DNA of 64,000 bases from Calcarisporiella thermophila CBS 279.70. Its lineage: Eukaryota > Fungi > Calcarisporiellomycota. Positions 27,079 through 59,035 of the stretch are shown piece after piece. The notes under the pieces were generated by a model. The model was not told the origin of the DNA, did not search any database, and saw only the letters and a list, made by a program, of their open reading frames with translations. The stretch's first letter is position 1. Every line of letters starts with the position of its first letter. A program made the translations under genes and the position numbers. Location: positions 62,001 through 126,000 of the forward strand of contig NW_027192203.1 of NCBI RefSeq assembly GCF_041956535.1, given 5' to 3'.

Positions 27079-29990
27079 TGTTGAAACCGGCGGTAGCCAG
27101 TTAAAATGCAGGGATCCGCTTAATTTCAAGCGTAGATGCGACAAGAGCGGTAGCGCGAACACCCCCTTTGCTCTGCGTCGGCTTTCCCACAACTTCTGCC
27201 TCGGCCCTTTCGCCCGTTGGATGGTGCGGAATTTTCTCGCCTGCTACAGCTGGGCCAGAGGGAGCCCAAGAGACCAAGTGGAGCGGGCAAGGTCGCCGAC
27301 AAACATGCCCTTGGTTTAATTTTCACAAAATTGGTCCGCTTCCTCCACAGTTCCTCCAAGTTTCCACAGCCTTTCCGGTGGCTCAACTGGGGGGAATTCA
27401 CCAAAGAATATTCGCCTTTGCCACCAAAAATATAACACTCGTGCGGTACTCCTCCCGGATTCTTCAACTCTCCCTCCTTCCCTCTCTCCCTCATCCCAGT
27501 GACTCGACACCTCATTCTTGCAGGCCAAATGGGCATTTCTCAATCAACCTCCAACATAGCCCCGGTGGCTGGCCGCCTTGCTGGCACAGCCATCCGGAGC
27601 GACTCCAAGAATTCTGGGTGCTGCATGTACTCCAGCGGAGGCATCATGAACAAGGCCGACCTCGGCTGGCTAGAGGCATGGCGGCACCAAGGGAGGCAGC
27701 CTGTGCATGTTTCGGAGCTGGAGGTGGTGGTTCCCGCCGCCAATGCCAATGCGGGAAGCGAGAGATTGACCACCCCAGCGGGGCTGATTGCACGCTGCGC
27801 TTGCAGTGGGACCCCCTTGGTCGAACTACCCAGCGGAGCACAGACACTGACGCACTGGTGCTCGCAGCAGCCTCTGCACTCCATGCAATCCGCCGTCGAG
27901 GAGCTGCGCAGCTTGGGGATCCGTGCCAGTGGAGTGGACACCCTGACTGGAGTGCGCAGGCCGTTGGCGGCGCACGACCGGGCCATATGGCTGCTGGCGG
28001 ACGCTGGTCTGCGGGCGGCCAATGACTGGAGCGCGCGAGAAGATGATTTGAATGATCTACTCCGCGCGGGCCGAACGGACGGATACTCCATCGGGTTGGT
28101 GGTTGGCAGCGACAGCGTGGCGGGCGTGGGCAACTCGCACCTAAAGCGCCCGGCCGTGCTACAGCGTGTGTGCTGCCTTGCCAGTGCCGTGTACGTCACG
28201 AGCCATCAGTCCCAGGTGGTGAACATGTGCAATCGGCTCTCCGTGACCACTTGGGCAGTCATACAGGCGAGCAGACGCATGTTCGTGCTTACGCCGTTCT
28301 CGCGTCAGATGGGCCCAGGAGACCCTAAAGGCCAGTTGACCGTCACCCATGCCGCCATTTGTAAGAGTGGGCGTATCCCGCTGCCGTCGCTGGCCGGACT
28401 GTTAGGGCTGTTAGAGGACTTCGGGCAGCTCTCGCTATCCGCCTTGGAGGCCATTTGGATGCCGCGTTTGCCACTCCTGGGATATGACGAGCTACCGGTG
28501 GCCGAGGAATGGGCGACGTCGGTGTACCGCCTGCAATCCGCCGATCTACTGCTGTGGAGGCGACTCGCTTCGGACGACCACCTTCGCCCCGCCTGCTGGC
28601 TGCCAACCACTCTAACCGAGTACAGTGCGAGTTTCAGCAGACGGGTGAAGGGGCGCGGCACGGGAGCAGGCCTCAAACTCCTGGGCGACGCGCTGCACCT
28701 AGTGCGCCGCCACTTGAGTGCCGTCGGCCACTACGGGCTAACGCAGATAGACGACGAGCTTCTGCTCGAAGTTGTCTTTCGAGGGCGGCTTGGGTCACGC
28801 CCCGCCATCTTCAGGAGCACCATCACCATCCCTGACCCGACCGGTCATCTCGGCGCTGCTATTGTTGGCAACGGCCGCTGTAAGTGGGACTTGGTGGCCG
28901 CTGAGGATGGGCCAAGTGGGCTGCTGCTGGTGACCACGTTCTCAGATGGCACTCAGCACCTGTGCGCCTCTTGGGAGCCAGGAGAGGAGCCTGCGTCGCG
29001 CAGATTGCTGGCCGCGTTGGCAGCGTCGACCCCTAAGCTGTTCTGTTTGACCGGCGTGGCAAAGAAGGGGAGGAGAAAACTCTGGCCAGTCGTGTGATCG
29101 CTTGCTCGCTCGCATACCCAACTACTCCGAGTGCCATCTAGCTGATATGGCTCCAATATCGCACCCGAGTCCTTTCGCACCCGAGATCAAGCGGAATTCG
29201 CGATCTAGACTGGGAATCCGGGAACGATAATATTGGTGACTCAGTTAGGATGGAAAGCTCCCTCCTCTTTCCTCCCCACTTCCAAGGCTGGTGTTTCCGT
29301 GTCAACCATTTCAGAGGTCGTGTGATCATCCTGAACTGATACACTTTTTGTCGTCCATTTCCGGCCAACCTTTGAATACCGCGAATATATATAATGTTGC
29401 TAGGCGTGGGCATCTCCTCGATTTTTTTCGGATCCACCGCTACTCCCACGAGAAATAGAACATGCCCCAAATACTTAAGTTCCCATTGCCCGAGATGGTT
29501 GGGCTTCTCTCGATTCATTTGCAGATTGCTCGGGAGCACTCTTTAGTAAACTCCATGTAAGCTTTCAAGATGTCTTGAAAAATTCCTTGAATACATGTTA
29601 ATAACATCCATGAATACTATCTAGTTTATCCACAATAGTCCGTCTAATGCTCTCTCCATCCTGGAAAGTGAACGGCGCCCGAGTCAGATAGAGCCTCATT
29701 TTCCCTTTTTTTTTTGTCACCAGGACGACGGGAGAAGATTCAGGGCAAAATACAAGACTCAATGATGTTCTGCTCCAGAATCTCCTTAATTCTCCGGCTG
29801 ATTATTTCTTGAGGCTCCCAGTTTGAGCGAGAGGGAGCACATTTAATCGGAAGAGTGTCTCCCGTATCCCTTTCATGCCCCACAACTAGGGTGCGTCCCC
29901 AAGCCTTCGAATATATCTTCATATTCGCTCAGTAGGGCGTCAAGCTACCCCTGTTCAAACTCGTTTTTAAGAAGATTGCACCCACCTTTG
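27079..29990 (-). mobile_element. Decayed Ty3/gypsy (chromovirus-type) LTR retrotransposon interrupted by a foreign ORF
   Basis: Minus-strand RT remnants with stops and frameshifts (GRTLVVGHERDTGDTLPI, SPVVLVTKK, APFTFQ, LKYLGHV, VAVDPKKI, RPLKWLTRK..WKWG). RNase H start (GAIL...VVGYAS) ends at about 29100. Chromodomain-like relic at about 27340-27500 (W*IPPS*ATGKAVETWRNC). Purine tract GAGCAAAGGGGG followed by TGTT at 27161; TGTT...AACA-bounded segment 27079-27161. Confidence 0.85.
27529..29097 (+). CDS. Intact intronless ORF of unknown function embedded antisense in the retrotransposon (candidate captured or endogenous viral gene)
   Basis: More than 520 stop-free codons, GC-rich relative to its flanks, Ala/Leu/Gly/Trp/Cys-rich. 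No recognisable host or retroelement domain. The start codon is uncertain. Confidence 0.7.
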   Translation: MGISQSTSNIAPVAGRLAGTAIRSDSKNSGCCMYSSGGIMNKADLGWLEAWRHQGRQPVHVSELEVVVPAANANAGSERLTTPAGLIARCACSGTPLVELPSGAQTLTHWCSQQPLHSMQSAVEELRSLGIRASGVDTLTGVRRPLAAHDRAIWLLADAGLRAANDWSAREDDLNDLLRAGRTDGYSIGLVVGSDSVAGVGNSHLKRPAVLQRVCCLASAVYVTSHQSQVVNMCNRLSVTTWAVIQASRRMFVLTPFSRQMGPGDPKGQLTVTHAAICKSGRIPLPSLAGLLGLLEDFGQLSLSALEAIWMPRLPLLGYDELPVAEEWATSVYRLQSADLLLWRRLASDDHLRPACWLPTTLTEYSASFSRRVKGRGTGAGLKLLGDALHLVRRHLSAVGHYGLTQIDDELLLEVVFRGRLGSRPAIFRSTITIPDPTGHLGAAIVGNGRCKWDLVAAEDGPSGLLLVTTFSDGTQHLCASWEPGEEPASRRLLAALAASTPKLFCLTGVAKKGRRKLWPVV

Positions 29991-31255
29991 CCAATTCTCT
30001 GACCTATCCCTGGCTCATCAGATCGTTTCCGCCTGGTTTCCACGTCCATCCTCCGCACTTCTACTCGAAATTGGGACCTATACTCTTGAGAAAAACCGTT
30101 CGGACGTGCCTCAGTTGTCTAGACCGGCCTCATGACGTTGATACCACGTGGCTACGTGGCCCAAACGGTATATTCCTACGGCTTTGTATACCATTGCGTC
30201 GCTCCAGTGGTGGGCTACTGCATCGAAAGTGCGAACCGGAATTCCAACCAGAACTTCACTTGGTATACCGTATCAGGGCACCAGTTTATTGTATACTAGA
30301 GAGATCAATCCAAGCGCCTTGCCGCTGGGTCTGACTTTCTACGTGCACTTTATTTTTTGCTATTCTTGATATCGAGGATTATACTTTTGAGGCAGGGTAA
30401 ATATCTAAGTTGGGCTATTTTCACAGTTGAACCCCCACCAACGTTACATGAAGCATTGGAATTGTGGAGGAGACGTGCCATATTTTATAGCAATTAAATA
30501 GCGTTCATTATTGATCTTTTCATTTTTTTTTTATTGAAAACTTATATAAAATAGATGATAAATATTTCAGAATCAAATGAAGAAAGCACTGATACAAAAA
30601 AAAAAAAATTAGATGCGTAATAAAATATAACAGTTAGTAATTATCAAGAAAACAACTATATAAACTATCTTGGATCAAAAACTGGCTATTTATCTCTAGA
30701 AAACGAACATCCTACATCATACTAAAGGATGCGAGAACGTCAAAGGTAATTTGGGTGGGTATTTTTGTTAGAAGAATCTTTATTAAAAAGTATCCTTTTT
30801 GTTCTTAATAAAGGGTATTGATAGAGAACAAGAAATCCATGCAAGAATTGAGGATGTACAGTGAGTGTGTATACCTTTCCTATTTTTTCAAGGAGAGAGG
30901 AAAGTAGAATAGGGGAGGGAGAAAGAAAAATTAGAATACGGATGGTAGGGTATTCGGCAGAATCGTATTGGAGCTAAGTGTGTTGGATGAAGGACATTTC
31001 ATCTCCTTGGGCTTGTATCCAACTTTCTTTACACCAAAGATCTTGGATATCTTCTTTTTATCCTTTATGGATGTGGATCACCATTTGGACCTAACGATTT
31101 TTTGCATCTCGTGTCCAAGTTGTTCAGCGAGTGTAATTTCGCTCGGTTAGGCGATGTCCATTATTCAAAAGGTAGTTCGGGAGGAAAGCCCGAAAAAAGT
31201 GGAAAAATTGGCTGATAAATACAAGTCCCGTTTCGATTATAAGCGGAGTAAGAAA

Positions 31256-31326
31256 GCAACTGTGGTCTAGTGGTAGAATTTCACCCTCCCAAGGTGGAGA
31301 CCCGGGTTCGATTCCCGGCAGTTGCA
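31256..31326 (+). tRNA. tRNA-Gly (CCC)
   Basis: Acceptor stem GCAACTG/CAGTTGC, D-arm with TAGTGGTA, anticodon loop CT-CCC-AA, T-arm CCGGG-TTCGATT-CCCGG, downstream T-run (Pol III terminator). Confidence 0.97.
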
Positions 31327-39373: not shown

Positions 39374-40300
39374 TACCTGATGTCAATTCAGGCCCTGTGT
39401 GTCGTCGGGAATGGAAGCTGAATGCGAACGGAGAGTTCTCTGACGGGATTTGTGTCTGTGGACCCAATATGGTCTTAAACATCGAATAAAGTAGAGTGGA
39501 CTGACGCAGAACAGTTGAATACGGGCCGCATAATGTCATCAGATTGGTTGCGTGTTCTCTTGGCAACAATTCAAATTACTGGACTCCTTGTGTCTGTAGT
39601 GACTCCGACAGTTTTTGAAACGTGCACGTTTGTCATAGAGCCGGTGGTTCTTTATATTTGCCACCGCTTTTTTGCGGCTTATGTTGGAGTCTAAATGGCG
39701 AGCATGGGCTCGTCCTTTGATACTGTGGCCAAAAAAGGATGTAGATGGAATAGAGGCTTACCGACGAGTTTCAGTCATCACACCGCCAGTCTTGATGTGA
39801 TCAGGGATTACTGGAGGAACGGCGGCGTATTTATGGAGCAATGAAATCCTCCAAGGGCCTAGTACGGGGATGACGGGGCTCCCTGTGTTCGCACTGATAA
39901 GCTACGCCGCGAGCTCTATTTTATCGGTTATTATCCTTGCAATATGTACACAGTAATTATAAGAATACCACTGCAATTATTGTATATTTTGCAAAACCTT
40001 ATAATATCGGCTCTCATTCCATGTGTATCAAATGGTATTTATATTTGCAATTTTGCAAGGGTAAAGGCGCTTCAAACTGAAAATTTTGGTGACACTTTTG
40101 CTCTTTTAATTAGGGTAGGATCAATATCCTTGTAGCTCAACAAAATAATGCATCCATGGCCCGAAAATTATCCCATATTTTTTGTCAGTCTCGCATCTTA
40201 TTTCAACGGATTCAGAGAGCACTCTTGTTACGACCCATTTTCAACTAAATCTGACAGGAAAAAATAAAAGCCTAGCAACGGAACTTTTTTTATCGAGTTT

Positions 40301-40648
40301 GAATAATTCTCGGCATTTTCATACAATTTCAGAGATGTTATGTGATAGAAGTAATTGGCGACTTCTGGAACTCCTATAGTAGAATAATAGTAAAAATAAA
40401 AGAAATATGGGAAAAAGGATCAGAAAACAAATATCTGAACAATTTAAAGAAAAGCAAGAAAACCGGGAATTTCCATTTACAGACAAAAAACAGAATAATA
40501 ATTGATGCATATAAATTAAATAGGCTCAAATTGAAAATTTTAACAGGTGGTTCATATATAGAAAGCTGCAATATTTTTCAATTAAATTAGGAAAGAGGGA
40601 AACTATTTTTTCAAAATTTTTATGCATTTGTGACTTATTTTTTGTACT
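40301..40648 (-). repeat. Diverged direct duplicate of the promoter and first codons of the 41248-41601 gene
   Basis: Aligns by eye with 41580-41933. Encodes only MKMPRIIQTR* versus MKMLRIIHTI... Confidence 0.9.
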
Positions 40649-41247
40649 AGTTTGTGTGACGTTTTTAGCATAAGGGAAAGATTTAACTCCGTATGATTTA
40701 TTACAATCTCAAATATATCAAATAAATGTTGACGTAGATACGTAGATAAAGGGATTAAGAAGATCTTAAAGTAACTCAAACATTTGTAATTGATTTCATT
40801 CGATTACGAAGATCACTCACCAATTCCTCGACTGCGACGTCATCAACTTCATCTTGATTTGTCCGATTTCCTTTTATGAACCTTGAATTTCTTACCATTT
40901 ATTTACTACTTATTACTTTCCATTTTACTTACCTTGTAGAATATCACTCTTGCTTACAATTAGATATCAATAAAAAGGACCGTAAACCCCCCTAGCCTAA
41001 TGTTACTAGGATAGTTTGAGAAGGGAGTGTAGGGTAAAAACACCGATTCTTATTCCAAAACGCAAATTGCTCAAAATATGTATCCAAATAGCGCTGTAGT
41101 CAACAAGAGGCCAGAAAGTATAAAAAATTTCTAAAAATAATAGGGAATTAGCTTTAAAAAAGGCAGTTCATCTTAAATTGATGCAGAGCAAAGGAAGCGG
41201 CAAAGTAATTCCCAGCTCAATGCATGTTGATAATGATGAGGGTTTGT

Positions 41248-41601
41248 TCAAAAATGGACTTCTTCGCATGCACGTCCTCGTGACTCAAGCCTACCTCCTA
41301 CGTGTTCCCAGCCCTCTGCGCAAAGTACTGCACCATTGGGTAGGTCGCGGTGTATCGGAATAGTGTATTTTTGATGATAACCCCAAAATTGTGTAGCGCT
41401 ATTCTGATCTATACCACCACCCCAAATGTGGAAGTGCCCAGTAAAGTCACCGTTCCATGTTGTCGATGCAGACACAGTTTCGACTCTAAGACCAGAGCCA
41501 TCAACGGCAATACAGGTCCTACTATTACATCCATTGCTTCCAGCGAAGGCTGTGGCGGTAATAAGCACAATAATAGTATGAATAATTCTCAGCATTTTCA
41601 T
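41248..41601 (-). CDS. Small secreted 4-Cys beta-rich protein (117 aa)
   Basis: Signal peptide (MKMLRIIHTIIVLITATAFA), then GCNSRTCIAVDGSGLRV...GHFHIWG...LCAEGW...GRACEEVHF. Intronless, with AT-rich flanks. Confidence 0.85.
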   Translation of the reverse strand: MKMLRIIHTIIVLITATAFAGSNGCNSRTCIAVDGSGLRVETVSASTTWNGDFTGHFHIWGGGIDQNSATQFWGYHQKYTIPIHRDLPNGAVLCAEGWEHVGGRLESRGRACEEVHF

Positions 41602-41959
41602 ACAATTTCAGAGAGATGTTATGTGATTAAAGTAATTAGCGACTTCTCGAACTTCTATAGTTAAATAATAGTAAAAGTAAAAGAGAACAATGAGAGAAAG
41701 GATCAGAAAACCGATATCTGAACTATTTAAAGAAAAGCAAGAAAACCGGGAATTTCCATTTACAAACAAGCAAGCATTGTAATTATGTATGCACGTAAAT
41801 TAAGTAGATTCAAATTGAAAATCTTGACAAGTGATTCATATGTAGAAAAGAGCCGCAAAATATTTTAATTGAATAAGCTACATGGAAAGATTTTTTTCAA
41901 AATTTTTATGCACGTGTGGCTTATTTTTGGCACGAATTTACTACATTTGTTAGTTTTAG

Positions 41960-45170: not shown

Positions 45171-45636
45171 CTTTTAAGTTACATATATTAGTATCATTTC
45201 TTCTTAATCTCAGTGACTACGTAGCAACGTCAACTTTTATAGTATATATATTGGTATGTATGAGGTTATAATAAATTATTTGGAGTTATATCCGTATATA
45301 CGAGCCCAACCTGGTCATTGTCCTAAAGATTCTTTCGCGTTTTGCAAGAGGCTCGAGAAGCTTGAATATGCTGCCAGTCTTAAAGCCAGGCCTGATGAGC
45401 TAAAATGCGTGCACCTAGTCAAAAGCTTCATAAGGGCGCCTTACGATGGATCATCGTGAGGTACACCCTTGTTCTCCATCAAAGGTTACTAGGGATTTTG
45501 AGATAGAGAGAAAGATATAAATCTGAATGATTTATTACAGCCTCATATGTACTAATATATCAATTTTAAAAGATGACGTTGCTAAGTAGTCACTGAGATT
45601 TAGAAGATCTGATACTAATATATGTAACATTAAAAG
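45171..45636. mobile_element. MITE / non-autonomous DNA transposon with ~120-bp imperfect terminal inverted repeats
   Basis: 45171-45292 is the reverse complement of about 45515-45636 (e.g. GTTACATATATTAGTATCA / TGATACTAATATATGTAAC and AATCTCAGTGACTAC / GTAGTCACTGAGATT). Confidence 0.85.
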
Positions 45637-52164: not shown

Positions 52165-53647
52165 GGTGCGGGGGATGTCGTGGAGGGAAGGGGAGAGAGC
52201 ACTTGCAACGAGGACGAGGGGAAATCGAGCGTGCAATTTTAAGGTTGCCCGAGAGAGCCGAGGGGAAGTTCTTGCCGTGTGTCAAACAATATTCCAATAT
52301 GGGCATTGGATGACCAATTTGTTTAGGAAGAGGGGAGCTCGGACGGCGGTTAACCGGGCTTTTCTCCCGTTTTGAAATTATTAAATTACCTGCGAATTGG
52401 AGGCCGCTGGCTCTGCGCGAACTTCTATATCGGTGCAAGCCTGAGGAAAATGCGTGTCTCTTCGAGTTGAAACCCCCCACCTCCCTCCCACACTAAGCCA
52501 TTGGCCGTAGCACTCCGAGGAGAAAGCGAGCCTATGGCATCGGGGACTGGAGCTTGGGCCAAGCTGATCCGTTTGGACATGCGCATGTTAAGACACCCTT
52601 GAATTTGACTTATATAATGGGAATTCCCCCTCTTGAAACCTCGCTGCTCGATCTGATTCTTTCCCGTATTCAATAGGCTCGCCCCTATTAGTTTACTCCT
52701 CGCTCGCTATGAGTTTTACCTCGGTCTATTACTCTCGCTCCCCCAATCTTAGCGATGGCTTGAAACGGAGCGAAGCGAGGATCGCGCATCTTCCAATGCC
52801 GGCCTTGTGCAAGCTGAACGTAACCATGTCTTGGGCTTTGGTAGAATAAAAACCAATAGATCCAATATTCTCCTCCCTATTTCTTGGCCTCACTTGCTAG
52901 GATGCAAGAGTCTAGGAGGAGAAGGTCAATCCTCTGGCATTACAATAGGCTGCCGGCGTACGTATCATGCTTCAAATTCCTGGATATATTAAAGAAGACA
53001 GACCATGGTGATGTCTGATCCCTTGAACGAGGTGAGTCATACGTGTAATCACTCAGGACCCACCAGCCAGTGGCTGCTGGTCTTGTGGAATATAAAATGT
53101 CTAGCCTGTGGCTAATTAATATCGCGTTTTTCCTCCCTTTCTTCCGGGTTGATTGGGGGTTTTCAGCAAAGTTCAGTTTGAACTATGTTCCCTCCTATGC
53201 GCATTTTTCAGTAATAAAGACTGCCTCTCTTAACATGAGAGATGCTTGATCGCTATTGCGCTGCAATATATACTATTGCATCGTAGGCTCGACGTTGGAG
53301 AGGCTATCTCCCATCACGCCAATGTTCGGTATCATCCTCGATGTATTTTCAGTTGCATTATTAATTTGTTTCGTGAAACTATGCAACTTCATATGCGATG
53401 GAATGAAACTTTCTCTGAATTAAACTTGATGACAGTATTACACAAATGATACAGATAGTAGTTCCTCCCAGTATCATCTCTGATTAGACAGATAATTCTT
53501 TATGAACAATGAGCAAACGCTCTCAATTTCCAGATAGGGCTTGTATCAATAAGCATCAAGAAGCGACCAACTGTATTGACTAAAAAGTTTACAATCGAAT
53601 GGGGTTTCTGTCAAAGAAAAATAAATGAGCCATGGTTAGTTACAGCA

Positions 53648-53724
53648 AAGAATGGGCAAGTATCCTCCTAACTCCAGAGAGTTACGGAGATACTTGCCCA
53701 TTCTTCTACAGTGATCTTGTAGAA
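53648..53724. repeat. Long near-perfect hairpin followed by a second small hairpin
   Basis: AAGAATGGGCAAGTATC (53648-53664) pairs with GATACTTGCCCATTCTT (53689-53705), with inner pairing TAACTC/GAGTTA. Then TTCTACA-N7-TGTAGAA. Confidence 0.85.
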
Positions 53725-53785
53725 AGTTAATCTAAATTCGAGTATTTCAATGGAATGGATTGGGTTCCGAAACGCCTATTGATCT

Positions 53786-54360
53786 TCAGCGCGAGATCCT
53801 TTGGCATTTGGCCGTTGCACAGTGTTTGCAAGTCTGCCCCGTTACCACGCATTCATAGCCCTCTTCGCATGGCTGATTGCAAGCTACAGTCAAAATGGAG
53901 GGGAAAGGGAAGTGTTATGGGATTCGCACGGCCATGGTCATTCATGGAACTTACTGGGGACCACCTGCGCACAAAACACACAGCTCTCAACACACTTCGC
54001 CGTGGCACACCGATGGCATGTTTGTGGGAAAACTTGACACTCGAACCCCTTTGGGCAAGGTTCCCGGCAAGTTGGCATCACTTGAATGCAAATGACGCAT
54101 CTCGAAGTCTCGGACCGGACGCACCAGGCCCTGGCGCATCTTCTGCATGTCCGAGGAATTACTTTGCATTCATATCCGTCCTCGCAAGTCTCGCTGCACT
54201 CAGGCCTTCGCCGGGGACACGACAAACACACGTCCCGATCATCATATGGGTCCAATATGAGTCTTGTGGGAAGTGTGCCATTTGGAGTCCCCTTAGCAAA
54301 ACCAGCTTGCACTAATACTCCAAGGAGAAGGAGGACAACTAGAAAGAGCTTGTGGTGCAT
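53786..54360 (-). CDS. Secreted cysteine-rich protein A with three 8-Cys (Opy2-like) repeats, 2 exons
   Basis: Signal peptide, then 3 x C-x2-C-x6-C-x3-C-x5-C-x6-C-x2-C-x4-C. Intron 53884-53954 lies inside repeat 3. Confidence 0.88.
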
Positions 54361-55518
54361 AGTTCGACAGTTCTCTTGAAATGCGGGGGGTTAGCGGTTG
54401 AAAATTTGCCACGAATTAAGTTGAAACCGAATTTTAAGTGGCTCATTCCCACTTTTATAGAGCTAAATTAATTAAATATTCATGGAATTTTCGATTCTCA
54501 TTTTGAGGAACGAGAGAGGCGGGAGAAAAGAGAAGTCAATATAATAATATGTTTCTAGCGCCCTCTAGTTAAGCTTTCCAAGTTCCGTTTCCCCCCATAT
54601 CATAAACAATCCGTACGTATTCAAGAGAGAAAGATCATGATTCTCTTGCAATGATCAGAGAGAGGATATTTCCCTATTACTATGTAAAATGATAGTTCAT
54701 CAATCCTCTCTCCCCGCCCCCCTCCTCTCCCTGCCAGAGCATACATTATGAACCGATGCTTCTAGCAAATTCGGTCAAATTTGATGGCTTCTTACAATTC
54801 TTTAAGGGAGGGCTGCATATAATAGATATATCAGGGGTGGGGAGGGCGCGGGATATCAAGACATTGTTTTTCGTCCCACCGACGACAAGTTCCGACAAGT
54901 TTTTCAAACAGAGCCTGGCGGCCTACAATCTGAAATTTTTAATGATAGATTTAGATGGAAAGGGTTTCTCGGCTTGGAAGGTGGTGCTTAACAGATAATC
55001 TATTCCATCGAGGAAATAAAAAGACGTGAGGGATGAAATGGACCATTAATGCGTTCCCCTGGGAAAAATCGGCTTTTCGTGGGACTCGGCTTTTCTTTTG
55101 CGTGGAATAATGTTTTTAACTCTAAAATTTCAACAAAGACTGCCCAAATTGGACATGCTTTCAGATGTATAACCCTATTGGAAAAAAAAATAAAGCTACT
55201 TTTTTATAATTAAATGCTTATAGGGAACAGAGAAAGATTGCTTTTGGGGGGGACAAAATTATTGTCGAGCAAATATCTAGGAGTGGTCAAGGGGCGATTT
55301 TCAAAATAAATAAATATAAAGGTTTTGCGGGGAATAGTAATAATAATACTAAAACTAGATACAGGGATATTTATATATTCCTCCCACGAAAAAAAAATTT
55401 TTTTGGTAATAAATAAATATTATGCTCTGTATATTTTTTTTAGGTATCTATGAGGGAAGAGGGAGAGAGTGAAGCGATAGGGATGGGGAGGGTGGGAACG
55501 ATTTCCCTTTTCTTTTTT

Positions 55519-56103
55519 TTAGTTCTTGACCTTCAAGCACTGGGCCGTCGCGCACTTGTCACAAGTTTGCTTCGACACGACGCACTCATAACCCTGCTGG
55601 CACGGCTTTTCACAGGCTAAGTGAGAGAGAATGAAATCAGTCAGAATAGGTTTGGTTGTCAAGTCTCATCAATGGAACATACTGGGCTCACGAAGGGCGC
55701 ACATGACGCAGCCCTTGACACACTTTGCGGTTGCGCATTGGGTGCAGGTGCGAGGGAATACTTTGCATTCGTAGCCACTTTGGCATGGCTCTTGGCAGCG
55801 CGGCACCATCCCGGTGCAGACCTTGCAGCCTCGGGGACTCTTGGAAGACTTGACCCGGACGCATCTGGCCGTCGCACACTTTGTGCAGGTCTGGGGGGTG
55901 ACTTGGCACTCATACCCGGCCTTGCACGGCCCGGTGCAGTTGGGGTAGATCTGAGGGCAGATCACACACTGCTTCTCGACGTTGGGGGACATCTCAGAGG
56001 TGGATGCAGATGAAGTTTGGGACGAGCCTGCAGGAGCATCCTGAGCAAGCACACCAAGAGCAAGAGCAGCCAATGCGACAATGGAGAAAAGGTTACGGGC
56101 CAT
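55519..56103 (-). CDS. Secreted cysteine-rich protein B with three 8-Cys (Opy2-like) repeats, 2 exons; tandem paralog of A
   Basis: Signal peptide MARNLFSIVALAALALGVLA, identical Cys spacing and the same intron position as gene A. Confidence 0.88.
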
Positions 56104-59035
56104 GGTAAATTTGATGGTAGATGAGTTGGTTGTTTTTTGGTGGGGTTGCTTGGAGAAGATGTTGTTTTGAGAGTGAGAGAGGAGAAAGCTGATGAGAGTG
56201 TCCTCCGGGATGCCGCTCGTCCCCCTTTTATAGAGATGGAGGGGGAGGAGGAGAATTTCGCCCCTCCAAAAAAACTCCTTCTCCAAACTTTCTCGCCGAG
56301 TTTAAGATACAAACATAAAATGAACTTTCCACTATAGGGTGAACCATAATGACAAGCTTTTGCTCCTTCTAGTGGAGGCCAAACAAGCACCAGGAAGAGG
56401 AATAGGTTTGTGGCTTCTTCCCCCATTGTCAGTCTTGTAGAGTTTCCTCGGCTCACTAGGTCGCACGGCGCTAGTTAAGTTCACCGAAGCTCGGAATTGA
56501 GAACCCGCATTACTGTTCCATGTTCCATTTCAAACGCCGCGAGCCAAACTAGTTACTCAATTCATAGTCGCTCCATGCACAAGGTTGGTCGCCGGCTATG
56601 GCTCTACACACGGAGCATGGCTCGGAAACGCGCTGCAGCGGGATCTCCCTCTCCTACACTACGGCTCCGCTTCAACGAGCCCTCCCAGCCTAATGGATCA
56701 GGTCATTATCATTTCATGTTTGTCAGCGAAGAGCTTCTCTTTTCACACCACGTTGGTTGGCGTGTAATTGTTTGCGTGATTCTTCCAATGAAACTGAGAA
56801 GAAGAAAAAATAGAGCATCGAAAAATAAACGCAGGCCTGATGCTTTAGATTTATTAGTATAAACTTTCTACGAGTGGGCAAAAATAGATATACAAGCAAA
56901 ATAGAACCCATTTTTGAATTGCCATTTCTCGCCCCATCGATTTATGTGAGCCAAAGCACTACAAAGATGCACATTCGGGTTCCCACACGAGAGCGAGTAG
57001 CGGTTTCCCATTGAGAGTTTTATTTACGTTCTAAAAACGAAAAATCTTGGTGCGGAAACGCGGAATCAAGGAGAGTCCAAAGGGATGCTGCCCATACCCA
57101 GCCCTAGACAGCTCCCAAGGAGGACTCATCGAGACTCGGAAGCCGACCCGCCTAGTGGCAGCTAACCAGCCTATTGGGCCTATTGCGGTTTCCACTGCGC
57201 CTAGGACTAATCAGATCCACGCCCTCGCCGTGATGTCGGAGAGGGAGAGTCGGACTGGTTCACCTCAGGAGAACAAGGTTTATTGTTGCTTAAACGAGGA
57301 GGTGTCGGCTCTCCATGGTCGGGAACCAAGCTCAAATAGAGCCGGGTAATTCCGTGGATGAGTCGCCCGATTATATTCACTCCACAGAGGCTGGCGCTTG
57401 AAACTCTGAAAACCACCTTTCCCTTTAGACTCAGTCCCTTTCTTTAATGGGTGTTGCTCTTTCTTCACGCCATAAGGAGCTGGGTTTGAATGGCTCGCAA
57501 CCTCAAGCGCCATATCTCAAGGGAGTCGAAGCTTTAGGAAGGGGGCGTCCTCCTGGCTCTCCTTCAGCGAGCGGGTCCCCACGAATTATACCCTTTTTTC
57601 ACAGGCATTCTCTCGCCATGAAGGTTCCAAGGGCTTCCGAGAGGGTATTACGACACGTTCCTCTCGTTCGCCGCCGGCTATTGGTGGGGGGAGGGAAGAG
57701 CCTGACCAGTGTCCCGGTTTGACAGCTAAAGGAGTAGGTAATACTGCTCGCTGTAATACTTCCCATATTCTAACTTGGTAAAACTCAATCAAATGCCATT
57801 GTTTCCTGGTGTGCTTCTCAAAACGAATCCTTCCCACCTACACGGACCCACCAAACTCAAACCAGATTAGGCTTTTTTTTGTTTACGTTTACGGCCTCTA
57901 AAGAGACCAATGCTCTTCTTCTCCCCCCACAATGCATCCCCGAATTGGCCCGCATCCTCTCTGATTGACTTTCATTCTTTGTTTTTCGGAAGACTTCTAT
58001 TTTCTAAATGGGTGGATCGGTGTGCGGCCACAGATCAAAATTAGCACGTTCGCGCGGATGCCCAATAGGATGATCCTGGCAAATGAGGGTGCACCAGAAT
58101 TTATCGTCGAGAGGAGTGAATAATCTGGGCTTTCTGCGTTCTACGCATTTCAAAGAGCAGTAAAAGCCCAAAGGATATCGTTCATGTTCTGTTTGAATCC
58201 TCTTTCGAAAAAGGAAAACAGGTGGGGAAGGGGGCCCACCCAATCCGATCTGAGTAATGAGCTTAGCATCCCCTATTTTTTTCCACGCTGATTTTCCGCG
58301 CATAATAATGAAACTCTTTTGACTCTTGTGTACTGCACCTTGAAGGTTCGCACAAACCTAATACCTGGATCCAGAGGGAACCAATGGCGGCTGAAGCTGG
58401 GGCCACTGTGGGATTTTGAGCTTGTTTAGCCGGAGAAAGCAGCTTAGAGGGAAGAACGAGGGGAGCTGGGGGAGACTCATGGAAGGGGGAATGAGACGAT
58501 CTAAGAAGCGTGAAGCATGGGCCGACCCTGCCTCCTCCATAAGGCGATGCTTAGAAATGCTCTTAGGAACCGGGGCCAGTTATGGGGAGAAAGCAAAAAT
58601 ACAGGAGGTCAACGCCCCAGTGTCGGCGTAATATTTTTCACCGTTTATTTCGCCAAGAGAATGACAAAACAAAGTAGAATACTCCCAGTAGAATGTAAAA
58701 GAAAGCATGGACAGTTTTCTGATTAGAATTTTTTATCAAAATTCTATCAGCATATTGTTTTTAACATCGGCTATGCCCACGGCACAACAAATAAAGGTTG
58801 CTTTAGAAAAAAACTTCGCTTTTCCGCATGCCCTACCCCATCTTTACGTGAGAATGACTTAGTTTATTAGTATCCAAGAATACACACAAAATGGCAAGAA
58901 GAAAAAAAAGAGTTAAGATGAGGAAAATAGATAGAGAGGCAATATGAATACTTGACAATTTTTGAGGAAAAAAAAAGTGAATAGAAACGTGTATATCTTT
59001 TGTTGAAACAGATAGCTGCTATGTATCTCCTATAT

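What the first reader, a model, noticed from the sequence alone, without database searches (positions are those of the whole stretch)
27529..29097. Intact foreign ORF in place of RNase H-integrase inside a dead chromovirus: candidate captured and domesticated (myco)viral gene
Seen: on the minus strand, decayed RT runs into the RNase H start (GAIL...VVGYAS), which stops at about 29100, a few bases from this ORF's stop codon. Retroelement-like sequence resumes at about 27520 with a chromodomain relic, purine tract and LTR-like TG. The ~1.6 kb between is one antisense, intronless, GC-rich ORF with no stops, while both flanks carry many stops and frameshifts. Known: non-retroviral RNA-virus sequences enter fungal and insect genomes by recombination with LTR retrotransposons during reverse transcription. 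Inference: an RNA, plausibly a dsRNA mycovirus segment, was captured by template switching and has since been kept under purifying selection, e.g. as an antiviral or toxin gene. I cannot name the protein family; no RdRp motifs are visible.
Basis: partly seen in the sequence, partly recalled or inferred. Interest (0 to 1): 0.85.

Follow-up and report, generated by a model that had tools for sequence, protein, structure and literature searches.

The report
Orphan gene inside fungal retrotransposon debris
An unbroken 522-codon reading frame with no relative in any database searched sits tail-to-tail against the ruined polymerase of a fungal jumping gene; it was likely picked up from a foreign RNA, possibly an unknown fungal virus, and is likely kept by the fungus as a working gene.

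Summary
The ORF (27529-29097, +, 522 aa) is real: 0 of 2000 shuffles give such a frame, and its third codon positions are GC-rich. No homologue was found among 1.84 billion protein representatives. A decayed Ty3/gypsy RT-RNase H on the minus strand (29944-29108) stops at VVGYAS, 10 nt from the ORF's stop. The claimed chromodomain, PPT and LTR on the other side are not statistically supported, so 'inside a chromovirus' is unproven. New: a decayed 127-nt inverted repeat (27315-27441 / 30373-30498, 65% identity) brackets ORF plus relic. GC content is not foreign (host genes reach 65%), but amino-acid make-up (p=8e-9) and C3:G3 codon choice (p=0.001) are. At the relic's decay rate the ORF should be broken (0 of 1000 simulations), so selection or a later arrival is needed. 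Best reading (0.45): a foreign RNA captured during retroelement reverse transcription and kept as a host gene. A viral source is plausible but unshown (about 0.3). Rivals: the element's own antisense accessory gene, or a host orphan. No fold, expression or dN/dS evidence could be had.

The parts
27529..29097 (+). Orphan ORF, 522 aa, no intron; central alpha/beta segment about aa 145-285 in a low-confidence model; N-terminal MGxxxS (myristoylation-type motif, recalled) and C-terminal basic cluster KKGRRK
   Evidence: no homologue
29108..29944 (-). Decayed Ty3/gypsy RT, connection and RNase H start, ending at VVGYAS; 5 frameshifts, 2 stops, about 70 codons of RT core deleted near 29690
29098..29107 (.). 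10-nt junction between the ORF stop and the last recognisable RNase H codon; no poly(A) tail, no target-site duplication of 6 nt or more
29945..30372 (-). Possible protease relic (by eye and position only; not significant)
   Evidence: scores at shuffle level
27315..27441 (+).
   Evidence: coding identity unresolved
30373..30498 (-). Right arm of the inverted repeat, next to the retroelement relic; 86 of 132 columns identical, JC distance 0.37
27461..27497 (+).
27160..27169 (-). AAAGGGGG followed by TG: PPT/LTR-start-like, with no partner LTR found
31256..31326 (+). tRNA-Gly(CCC), about 760 nt beyond the right arm; context only

Best explanation
The ORF is an intact, intronless frame abutting a dead Ty3/gypsy RT-RNase H; it likely came from a foreign GC-rich RNA that was likely copied into the element's cDNA by a template switch just after VVGYAS, and it is likely maintained by selection as a host gene. 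Steps. (a) SHOWN: intact frame, broken neighbour, junction 10 nt from the stop, bracketing inverted repeat. (b) INFERRED: long residence in a high-GC, non-host genome, from amino-acid and codon make-up. (c) INFERRED: capture in the retroelement particle. A switch onto a cellular mRNA would give cargo in the element's sense, so cargo antisense to RT points to a minus-strand template, as dsRNA or negative-strand viruses supply. This argument fails if the left arm is the end of a second, plus-strand copy or if an inversion followed. (d) INFERRED: after the element died, the left arm (TATA-like box plus CT tract) served as promoter and purifying selection kept the frame. (e) GUESS, about 0.15 overall: the protein is a structural or accessory protein of an unsampled mycovirus and acts as a decoy against related viruses, as shown for a totivirus capsid copy in Debaryomyces (PMC6166632, abstract).
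For: Junction geometry. No poly(A) or TSD, as reported for LTR-mediated retrocopies (PMC5131818 passages). GARP/FYMINK 174/63 = 2.76 versus 315/294 = 1.07 in six host globular stretches, Fisher p=8e-9; K+E 6% versus 9-17% in 13 host stretches; fourfold C:G 111:117 versus 582:376 in six GC-rich host ORFs, p=0.001. No homologue or paralogue among 1.84 billion representatives or 7,995 scored candidates. Neutral decay: 14 of 47 near-invariant RT columns are changed; at d=0.1 with half the observed indel rate, 0 of 1000 ORF copies stay open; Poisson chance of no frameshift is 9e-5. Arm divergence (0.37 between arms, about 0.18 each) is of the same order as the RT decay (about 0.125), so the frame around the ORF is old. 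Precedent for virus-Ty3/gypsy recombinants and a flavivirus piece inside Ty3/gypsy sequence in mosquito cells (PMC6797480 passages), and for selected totivirus-derived genes in fungi (PMC2805616 passages).
Against: No viral or other homologue at all, so the source is unnamed. GC and GC3 are within the host range and the host codon model fits the ORF well (log-ratio 0.096, higher than 8 of 12 host ORFs). One host ORF (C2H2) reaches GARP/FYMINK 2.41. No significant retroelement protein signal left of the ORF. The arms are inverted, not direct, which a simple double template switch would not produce. Without indels, 16 of 1000 (d=0.1) and 110 of 1000 (d=0.05) copies survive, and a later insertion needs no selection. 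Two neighbouring host proteins are also one-member clusters, so only one genome of this lineage is held and dN/dS cannot be computed.
Confidence: 0.45

Rival explanations
1. The ORF is the element's own extra gene (antisense aORF between pol and 3' LTR). A deletion removed RNase H-integrase up to the aORF's stop, and the host kept the aORF.
For: Antisense, intronless, homologue-free ORFs with their own upstream promoter are known in plant Retand/Grande/RIRE2 (PMC7264820, PMC11963269 passages). A Botrytis case (brtn) is cited there by title only. The relic already has a large internal deletion. With no chromodomain shown left of the ORF, it may simply lie 3' of pol. Earlier scan notes report orphan extra genes in fungal gypsy elements (unchecked).
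Against: aORFs usually occur in most copies of a family (PMC7264820 abstract), yet no second copy is annotated in this or any genome. None of 36 non-pol ORFs in 115 fetched gypsy loci resembles it. ORF GC 63% versus relic 47%. The deletion would have to end within 10 nt of the stop.
Confidence: 0.22
2. A resident, fast-evolving or horizontally acquired host gene, next to which retroelement and TIR-element fragments piled up near a tRNA gene and were trimmed by deletion.
For: Host-like GC3 and codon fit. Host-like CT leader. A possible acceptor TTCTTGCAG ending at 27523 with a GTGCGG donor at 27441. Other decayed repeats with about 120-nt inverted arms exist in the window.
Against: No 3' UTR space before the RNase H relic. 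Amino-acid make-up unlike host globular proteins. Other globular host genes in the window hit Pfam while this 522-aa protein hits nothing.
Confidence: 0.18
3. The 127-nt arms are old terminal inverted repeats of a DNA transposon (Pack-TIR type) that took up the ORF by gap repair, the gypsy piece being a nested insertion.
For: Inverted arms bracket the whole 3.2-kb unit, score 57.5 versus at most 41 in 186 real tiles and 44 in 300 Markov controls. A TIR-like pair of similar length sits at 45171-45636. Mechanism described in PMC8277862 (passages).
Against: No TSD of 5 nt or more outside the arms. No other copy of the arms in the window. No parent gene found. Captured pieces are typically about 200-300 bp (PMC8277862 passage).
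Confidence: 0.07
4. A recent, neutral insertion into an already dead element, or an assembly chimera.
For: No population or read data could be examined. Composition not yet host-like at the amino-acid level fits a recent arrival.
Against: A chimera would not be expected to join at the ORF's stop and inside an old inverted repeat. A contaminating cellular gene would usually have homologues. No LINE-type poly(A) or TSD.
Confidence: 0.08

Closest known systems
Fungal non-retroviral integrated RNA virus genes (NIRVs; totivirus capsid/RdRp copies in Debaryomyces and Pichia; PMC2805616, PMC6166632)
   Same: Long, intact, intronless ORF in a fungal chromosome; selection inferred.
   Different: Those match known totiviruses and show no obvious retroelement signature in their flanks (PMC2805616 passage). 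Here the retroelement junction is visible but no virus matches.
Virus-Ty3/gypsy recombinant EVEs of Aedes (PMC6797480)
   Same: Foreign sequence set within Ty3/gypsy sequence, attributed to copy-choice during reverse transcription.
   Different: Those are viral fragments acting through antisense piRNAs. Here a full open frame persists while the carrier decayed, and the viral origin is unproven.
LTR-mediated retrocopies (PMC5131818; maize Bs1, yeast Ty1 chimeras)
   Same: Intronless cargo joined to a broken LTR element, no poly(A), no TSD.
   Different: No parent gene found; cargo is antisense to RT; flanks are an inverted rather than a direct repeat; element sequence is proven on one side only.
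Antisense additional ORFs (aORF-3R) of Ty3/gypsy: Grande gene23, RIRE2, Retand TRP28; Botrytis brtn (title only)
   Same: Antisense to pol, no known homologue, own upstream promoter-like sequence.
   Different: Those lie after an intact integrase and recur in many copies. This one abuts a truncated RNase H and is single.

Membership tests
Ty3/gypsy LTR retrotransposon (the relic) | Gypsy-type RT followed by RNase H | tested here: met
   Pfam RVT_1 E 0.007, below cut-off
Ty3/gypsy LTR retrotransposon (the relic) | Protease upstream, integrase downstream of RNase H | tested here: inconclusive
   Protease by eye only; no integrase signal on either side
Ty3/gypsy LTR retrotransposon (the relic) | Direct LTR pair, PBS, PPT | tested here: inconclusive
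   No direct repeat above shuffles and no PBS-like match; decay or deletion could hide them
Chromovirus | Chromodomain at the integrase C-terminus | tested here: inconclusive
   Shuffle-level scores; power only 40-68% at this decay
Chromovirus | RT groups with chromoviruses | tested here: inconclusive
   Quick tree, 104 rows: relic on a 2.36 branch in an open fork beside one chromodomain-bearing and one other element
Non-retroviral endogenous viral element (NIRV/nrEVE) | Homology to an RNA virus protein | tested here: inconclusive
   No hit; fold searches used models of pLDDT 35-38, so absence is not exclusion
Non-retroviral endogenous viral element (NIRV/nrEVE) | Intronless, chromosomally integrated among host genes | tested here: met
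   contig of 833,637 bases; junctions not checked with reads
Domesticated gene | dN/dS below 1 across strains or species; expression | not testable with these tools
   Single genome; only the decay contrast is available
LTR-mediated retrocopy | Same element on both sides, microsimilarity at both joints | not testable with these tools
   No intact family member and no parent RNA; whole genome not held
LTR-mediated retrocopy | No poly(A) tail or TSD | tested here: met
   (only two 5-nt chance matches)
aORF-3R of Ty3/gypsy | Antisense to pol | tested here: met
aORF-3R of Ty3/gypsy | Between integrase and 3' LTR in most copies of the family | not testable with these tools
   No other copy available; no homologue in 115 fetched gypsy loci
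Pack-TIR DNA transposon | Terminal inverted repeats | tested here: met
   (65% identity, decayed)
Pack-TIR DNA transposon | TSD, known TIR family, parent gene | tested here: inconclusive
   None found; age may have erased the TSD

The most novel reading that the evidence does not exclude
A gene from a still-unsampled fungal RNA virus family was captured from its minus strand by a Ty3/gypsy reverse transcriptase, given a promoter by an inverted copy of element sequence, and domesticated as an antiviral protein. It would be a fungal case in which the capture joint is still legible, and the only record of that virus group.
Probability: 0.25. Interest if true: 0.8.

Novelty: new variant of a known kind. 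Interest (0 to 1): 0.52.

Why it matters
How RNA-virus genes enter fungal chromosomes is inferred rather than seen: the classic yeast cases show no obvious retroelement signature in their flanks (PMC2805616 passage). A kept, full-length frame still joined to a Ty3/gypsy RNase H would make that route testable in a fungus and would mark an unknown virus lineage. Even under the rival readings it is a 522-aa protein without relatives that outlived the element beside it. The case stays moderate because neither the source nor selection is directly shown.

Tried and rejected
Homology searches with no result: Pfam whole protein and four parts, PHROGs, NCBIfam, PDB sequences, 5.8-billion set (8, self only), 1.84-billion phmmer (21; the one other hit, P0002, E 5e-4, is a 17-fold repeat protein and was rejected), viral, metagenome and prokaryote contigs (20, 23, 81: 0 of 6, 67, 47 candidates), phages, plasmids (80: five hits at E 0.3-0.8, rejected), Atlas (18, 28: best feature score 0.77, TM under 0.5). 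Structure: two single-sequence models, pLDDT 35 and 38. Foldseek had no E under 0.001 and VIA best Z was 6.1, 5.7 and 4.5. The ribokinase/GT-B matches mean only a Rossmann-like arrangement; no enzyme is assigned. Sequencing runs: none was listed, no RNA holder listed, so no reads were laid. Ideas dropped: integrase upstream of RT (4 of 30 and 9 of 100 shuffles as high); RNase H continuing into the ORF's 3' end (not above null); arms as chromodomain, zinc knuckle or protease (best 6 of 150 shuffles among 8 tests, not significant after correction); synonymous bias between arms (fits both orientations); ambigrammatic reverse ORF (6 stops); Rfam (87, tRNA only). A search with the RT relic itself found nothing. 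The careful tree did not finish and the quick one was used, after thinning 159 segments to 103. The host lineage below 'fungus' was not determined. Literature searches listed no fungal case of a viral ORF with a preserved Ty3/gypsy joint; the library lacks most subscription papers, and the Botrytis brtn paper was not held. No supplements were read.

Full report
Setting. The window is gene-dense fungal DNA: Pfam finds STE12 with C2H2 fingers, Opy2, RasGEF, PH, homeodomain and SDR, and rpL35Ae and a Myb-like domain. No whole genome is held. Two neighbouring host proteins are one-member clusters, so only one genome of this lineage is in the collection.

The ORF. 27529-29097 (+) encodes 522 aa without a stop. 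About 15 stops would be expected; 0 of 2000 shuffles reach this length; GC1/2/3 are 0.63/0.53/0.73. The protein is annotated (NCBI, UniRef) and alone in its cluster. It has no relative among 7,995 scored candidates of the 5.8-billion set or by phmmer over 1.84 billion representatives (the second hit is a repeat artefact). Family libraries, PDB, contig scans and the Atlas were blank. Single-sequence models are poor (pLDDT 35 and 38). They suggest an alpha/beta middle part (about aa 145-285) that matches ribokinase-like and GT-B folds only at Z up to 6.1, which names no function. The sequence begins MGISQS, fitting a myristoylation motif (recalled; such a motif is noted for coltivirus VP4 in PMC12159217 passages, but many cellular proteins also have one), and ends in KKGRRK. 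No strong membrane segment (peak KD 1.55).

Right flank. I fetched 115 gypsy loci by motif and 120 polyproteins. They map a minus-strand RT-connection-RNase H relic at 29944-29108, with 5 frameshifts, 2 stops, a roughly 70-codon deletion in RT, and 14 of 47 near-invariant residues changed. It ends at VVGYAS, 10 nt from the ORF's stop; continuation of RNase H into the ORF is not above null. Protease upstream is visible by eye only. The relic's place in the tree is unresolved, so 'chromovirus' rests on the prior that most fungal gypsy elements are chromoviruses (PMC3248453 passages).

Left flank. The chromodomain is not detected, though power was only 40-68%. The purine tract is on the wrong side for a PPT and looks like the CT leaders of host genes (4 of 9 as strong). 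No direct LTR pair exists. What does exist is a decayed inverted repeat: 27315-27441 matches the reverse complement of 30373-30498 at 86 of 132 columns, score 57.5 against at most 41 in 186 real tiles and 44 in 300 Markov sequences. It ranks 6th of 952 tile pairs, below other repeats. Its nature (chromodomain, knuckle, protease, LTR promoter, TIR) could not be fixed. Both arms keep a TATAA at their inner end; the left one lies 94 nt before the ATG. The layout is arm -> ORF -> | <- RH <- RT <- (PR) <- arm, about 760 nt from a tRNA-Gly gene.

Foreign or host? Protein make-up differs: GARP/FYMINK 2.76 versus 1.07 in six host globular stretches (p=8e-9), K+E 6% versus 9-17%, fourfold C:G 111:117 versus 582:376 (p=0.001). 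By established reasoning this points to long evolution in a GC-rich genome. One low-complexity host ORF reaches 2.41, so it is not proof.

Selection. If the ORF is as old as the relic's decay it should be broken: 0 of 1000 simulations at d=0.1 with half the seen indel rate, 14 of 1000 at a quarter of it, Poisson 9e-5 for no frameshift. The arms (JC 0.37 apart) are similarly old. A later insertion escapes this argument, but no poly(A) or TSD marks one. dN/dS and expression could not be tested.

Mechanism and odds. Capture of a foreign RNA during reverse transcription followed by host retention: 0.45, about 0.3 for a viral source, about 0.15 for a decoy-type antiviral role. Precedents: PMC6797480 and PMC5131818 (passages) for the route; PMC2805616 (passages) and PMC6166632 (abstract) for selected and antiviral fungal copies; PMC7482067 (passages) for frequent and endogenised viruses in early-diverging fungi; PMC10636211 (passages) for protein-level domestication. 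Antisense accessory gene of the element: 0.22 (PMC7264820, PMC11963269 passages; earlier scan notes, unchecked). Resident or horizontally gained host gene amid debris: 0.18. Pack-TIR: 0.07 (PMC8277862 passages). Recent neutral insertion or chimera: 0.08. PMC2864245 had none of six search terms for extra ORFs; PMC10799480 passages added nothing specific.

Verdict. A real and odd locus: an intact orphan gene joined to, and outliving, Ty3/gypsy debris, bracketed by an old inverted repeat. The capture-and-keep reading is the best single account, but the chromovirus label, the second junction and the viral source are not established. Interest 0.52.

Noticed in passing
window 40296-40653 and 41575-41939: AT-rich direct repeat of about 360 nt, 82% identical, with an unrelated 0.9 kb between; no Pfam hit on either. 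Possibly two MITE or solo-LTR copies.
   Followed up: partly
window 45171-45636: Inverted arms of about 123 nt, 85% identical, also about 71% similar to 40662-40774: a TIR/MITE-like element.
   Followed up: partly
window 53600-56300: Two tandem minus-strand genes with cysteine-rich Opy2-type repeats, sharing a 95-nt match at 72%.
   Followed up: no
window 27441-27523: Possible 83-nt intron (GTGCGG ... TTCTTGCAG) ending 6 nt before the ORF's ATG; would imply an upstream exon.
   Followed up: partly
window 29095-29097: The ORF's TGA could be the antisense of a Ser codon of the element's YASRS after a 7-nt duplication, so the stop may be element-derived; score 5.7, about 10% by chance.
   Followed up: partly
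L065; L023, L076; P0087-P0122 subset: Soil-metagenome gypsy elements nearest the relic whose gag-PR-RT-RH frame ends right after RNase H; in L065 integrase follows in another frame.
   Followed up: partly
window 1-64000: Host ORFs vary widely in GC3 (0.43-0.84) over short distances; several regulators (STE12, C2H2, homeodomain, Myb, two RasGEF-type ORFs) lie in this one window.
   Followed up: no
window 31256-31326: tRNA-Gly(CCC) about 760 nt from the unit's right arm; tRNA-proximal targeting by some Ty3-type elements is recalled, not tested.
   Followed up: no
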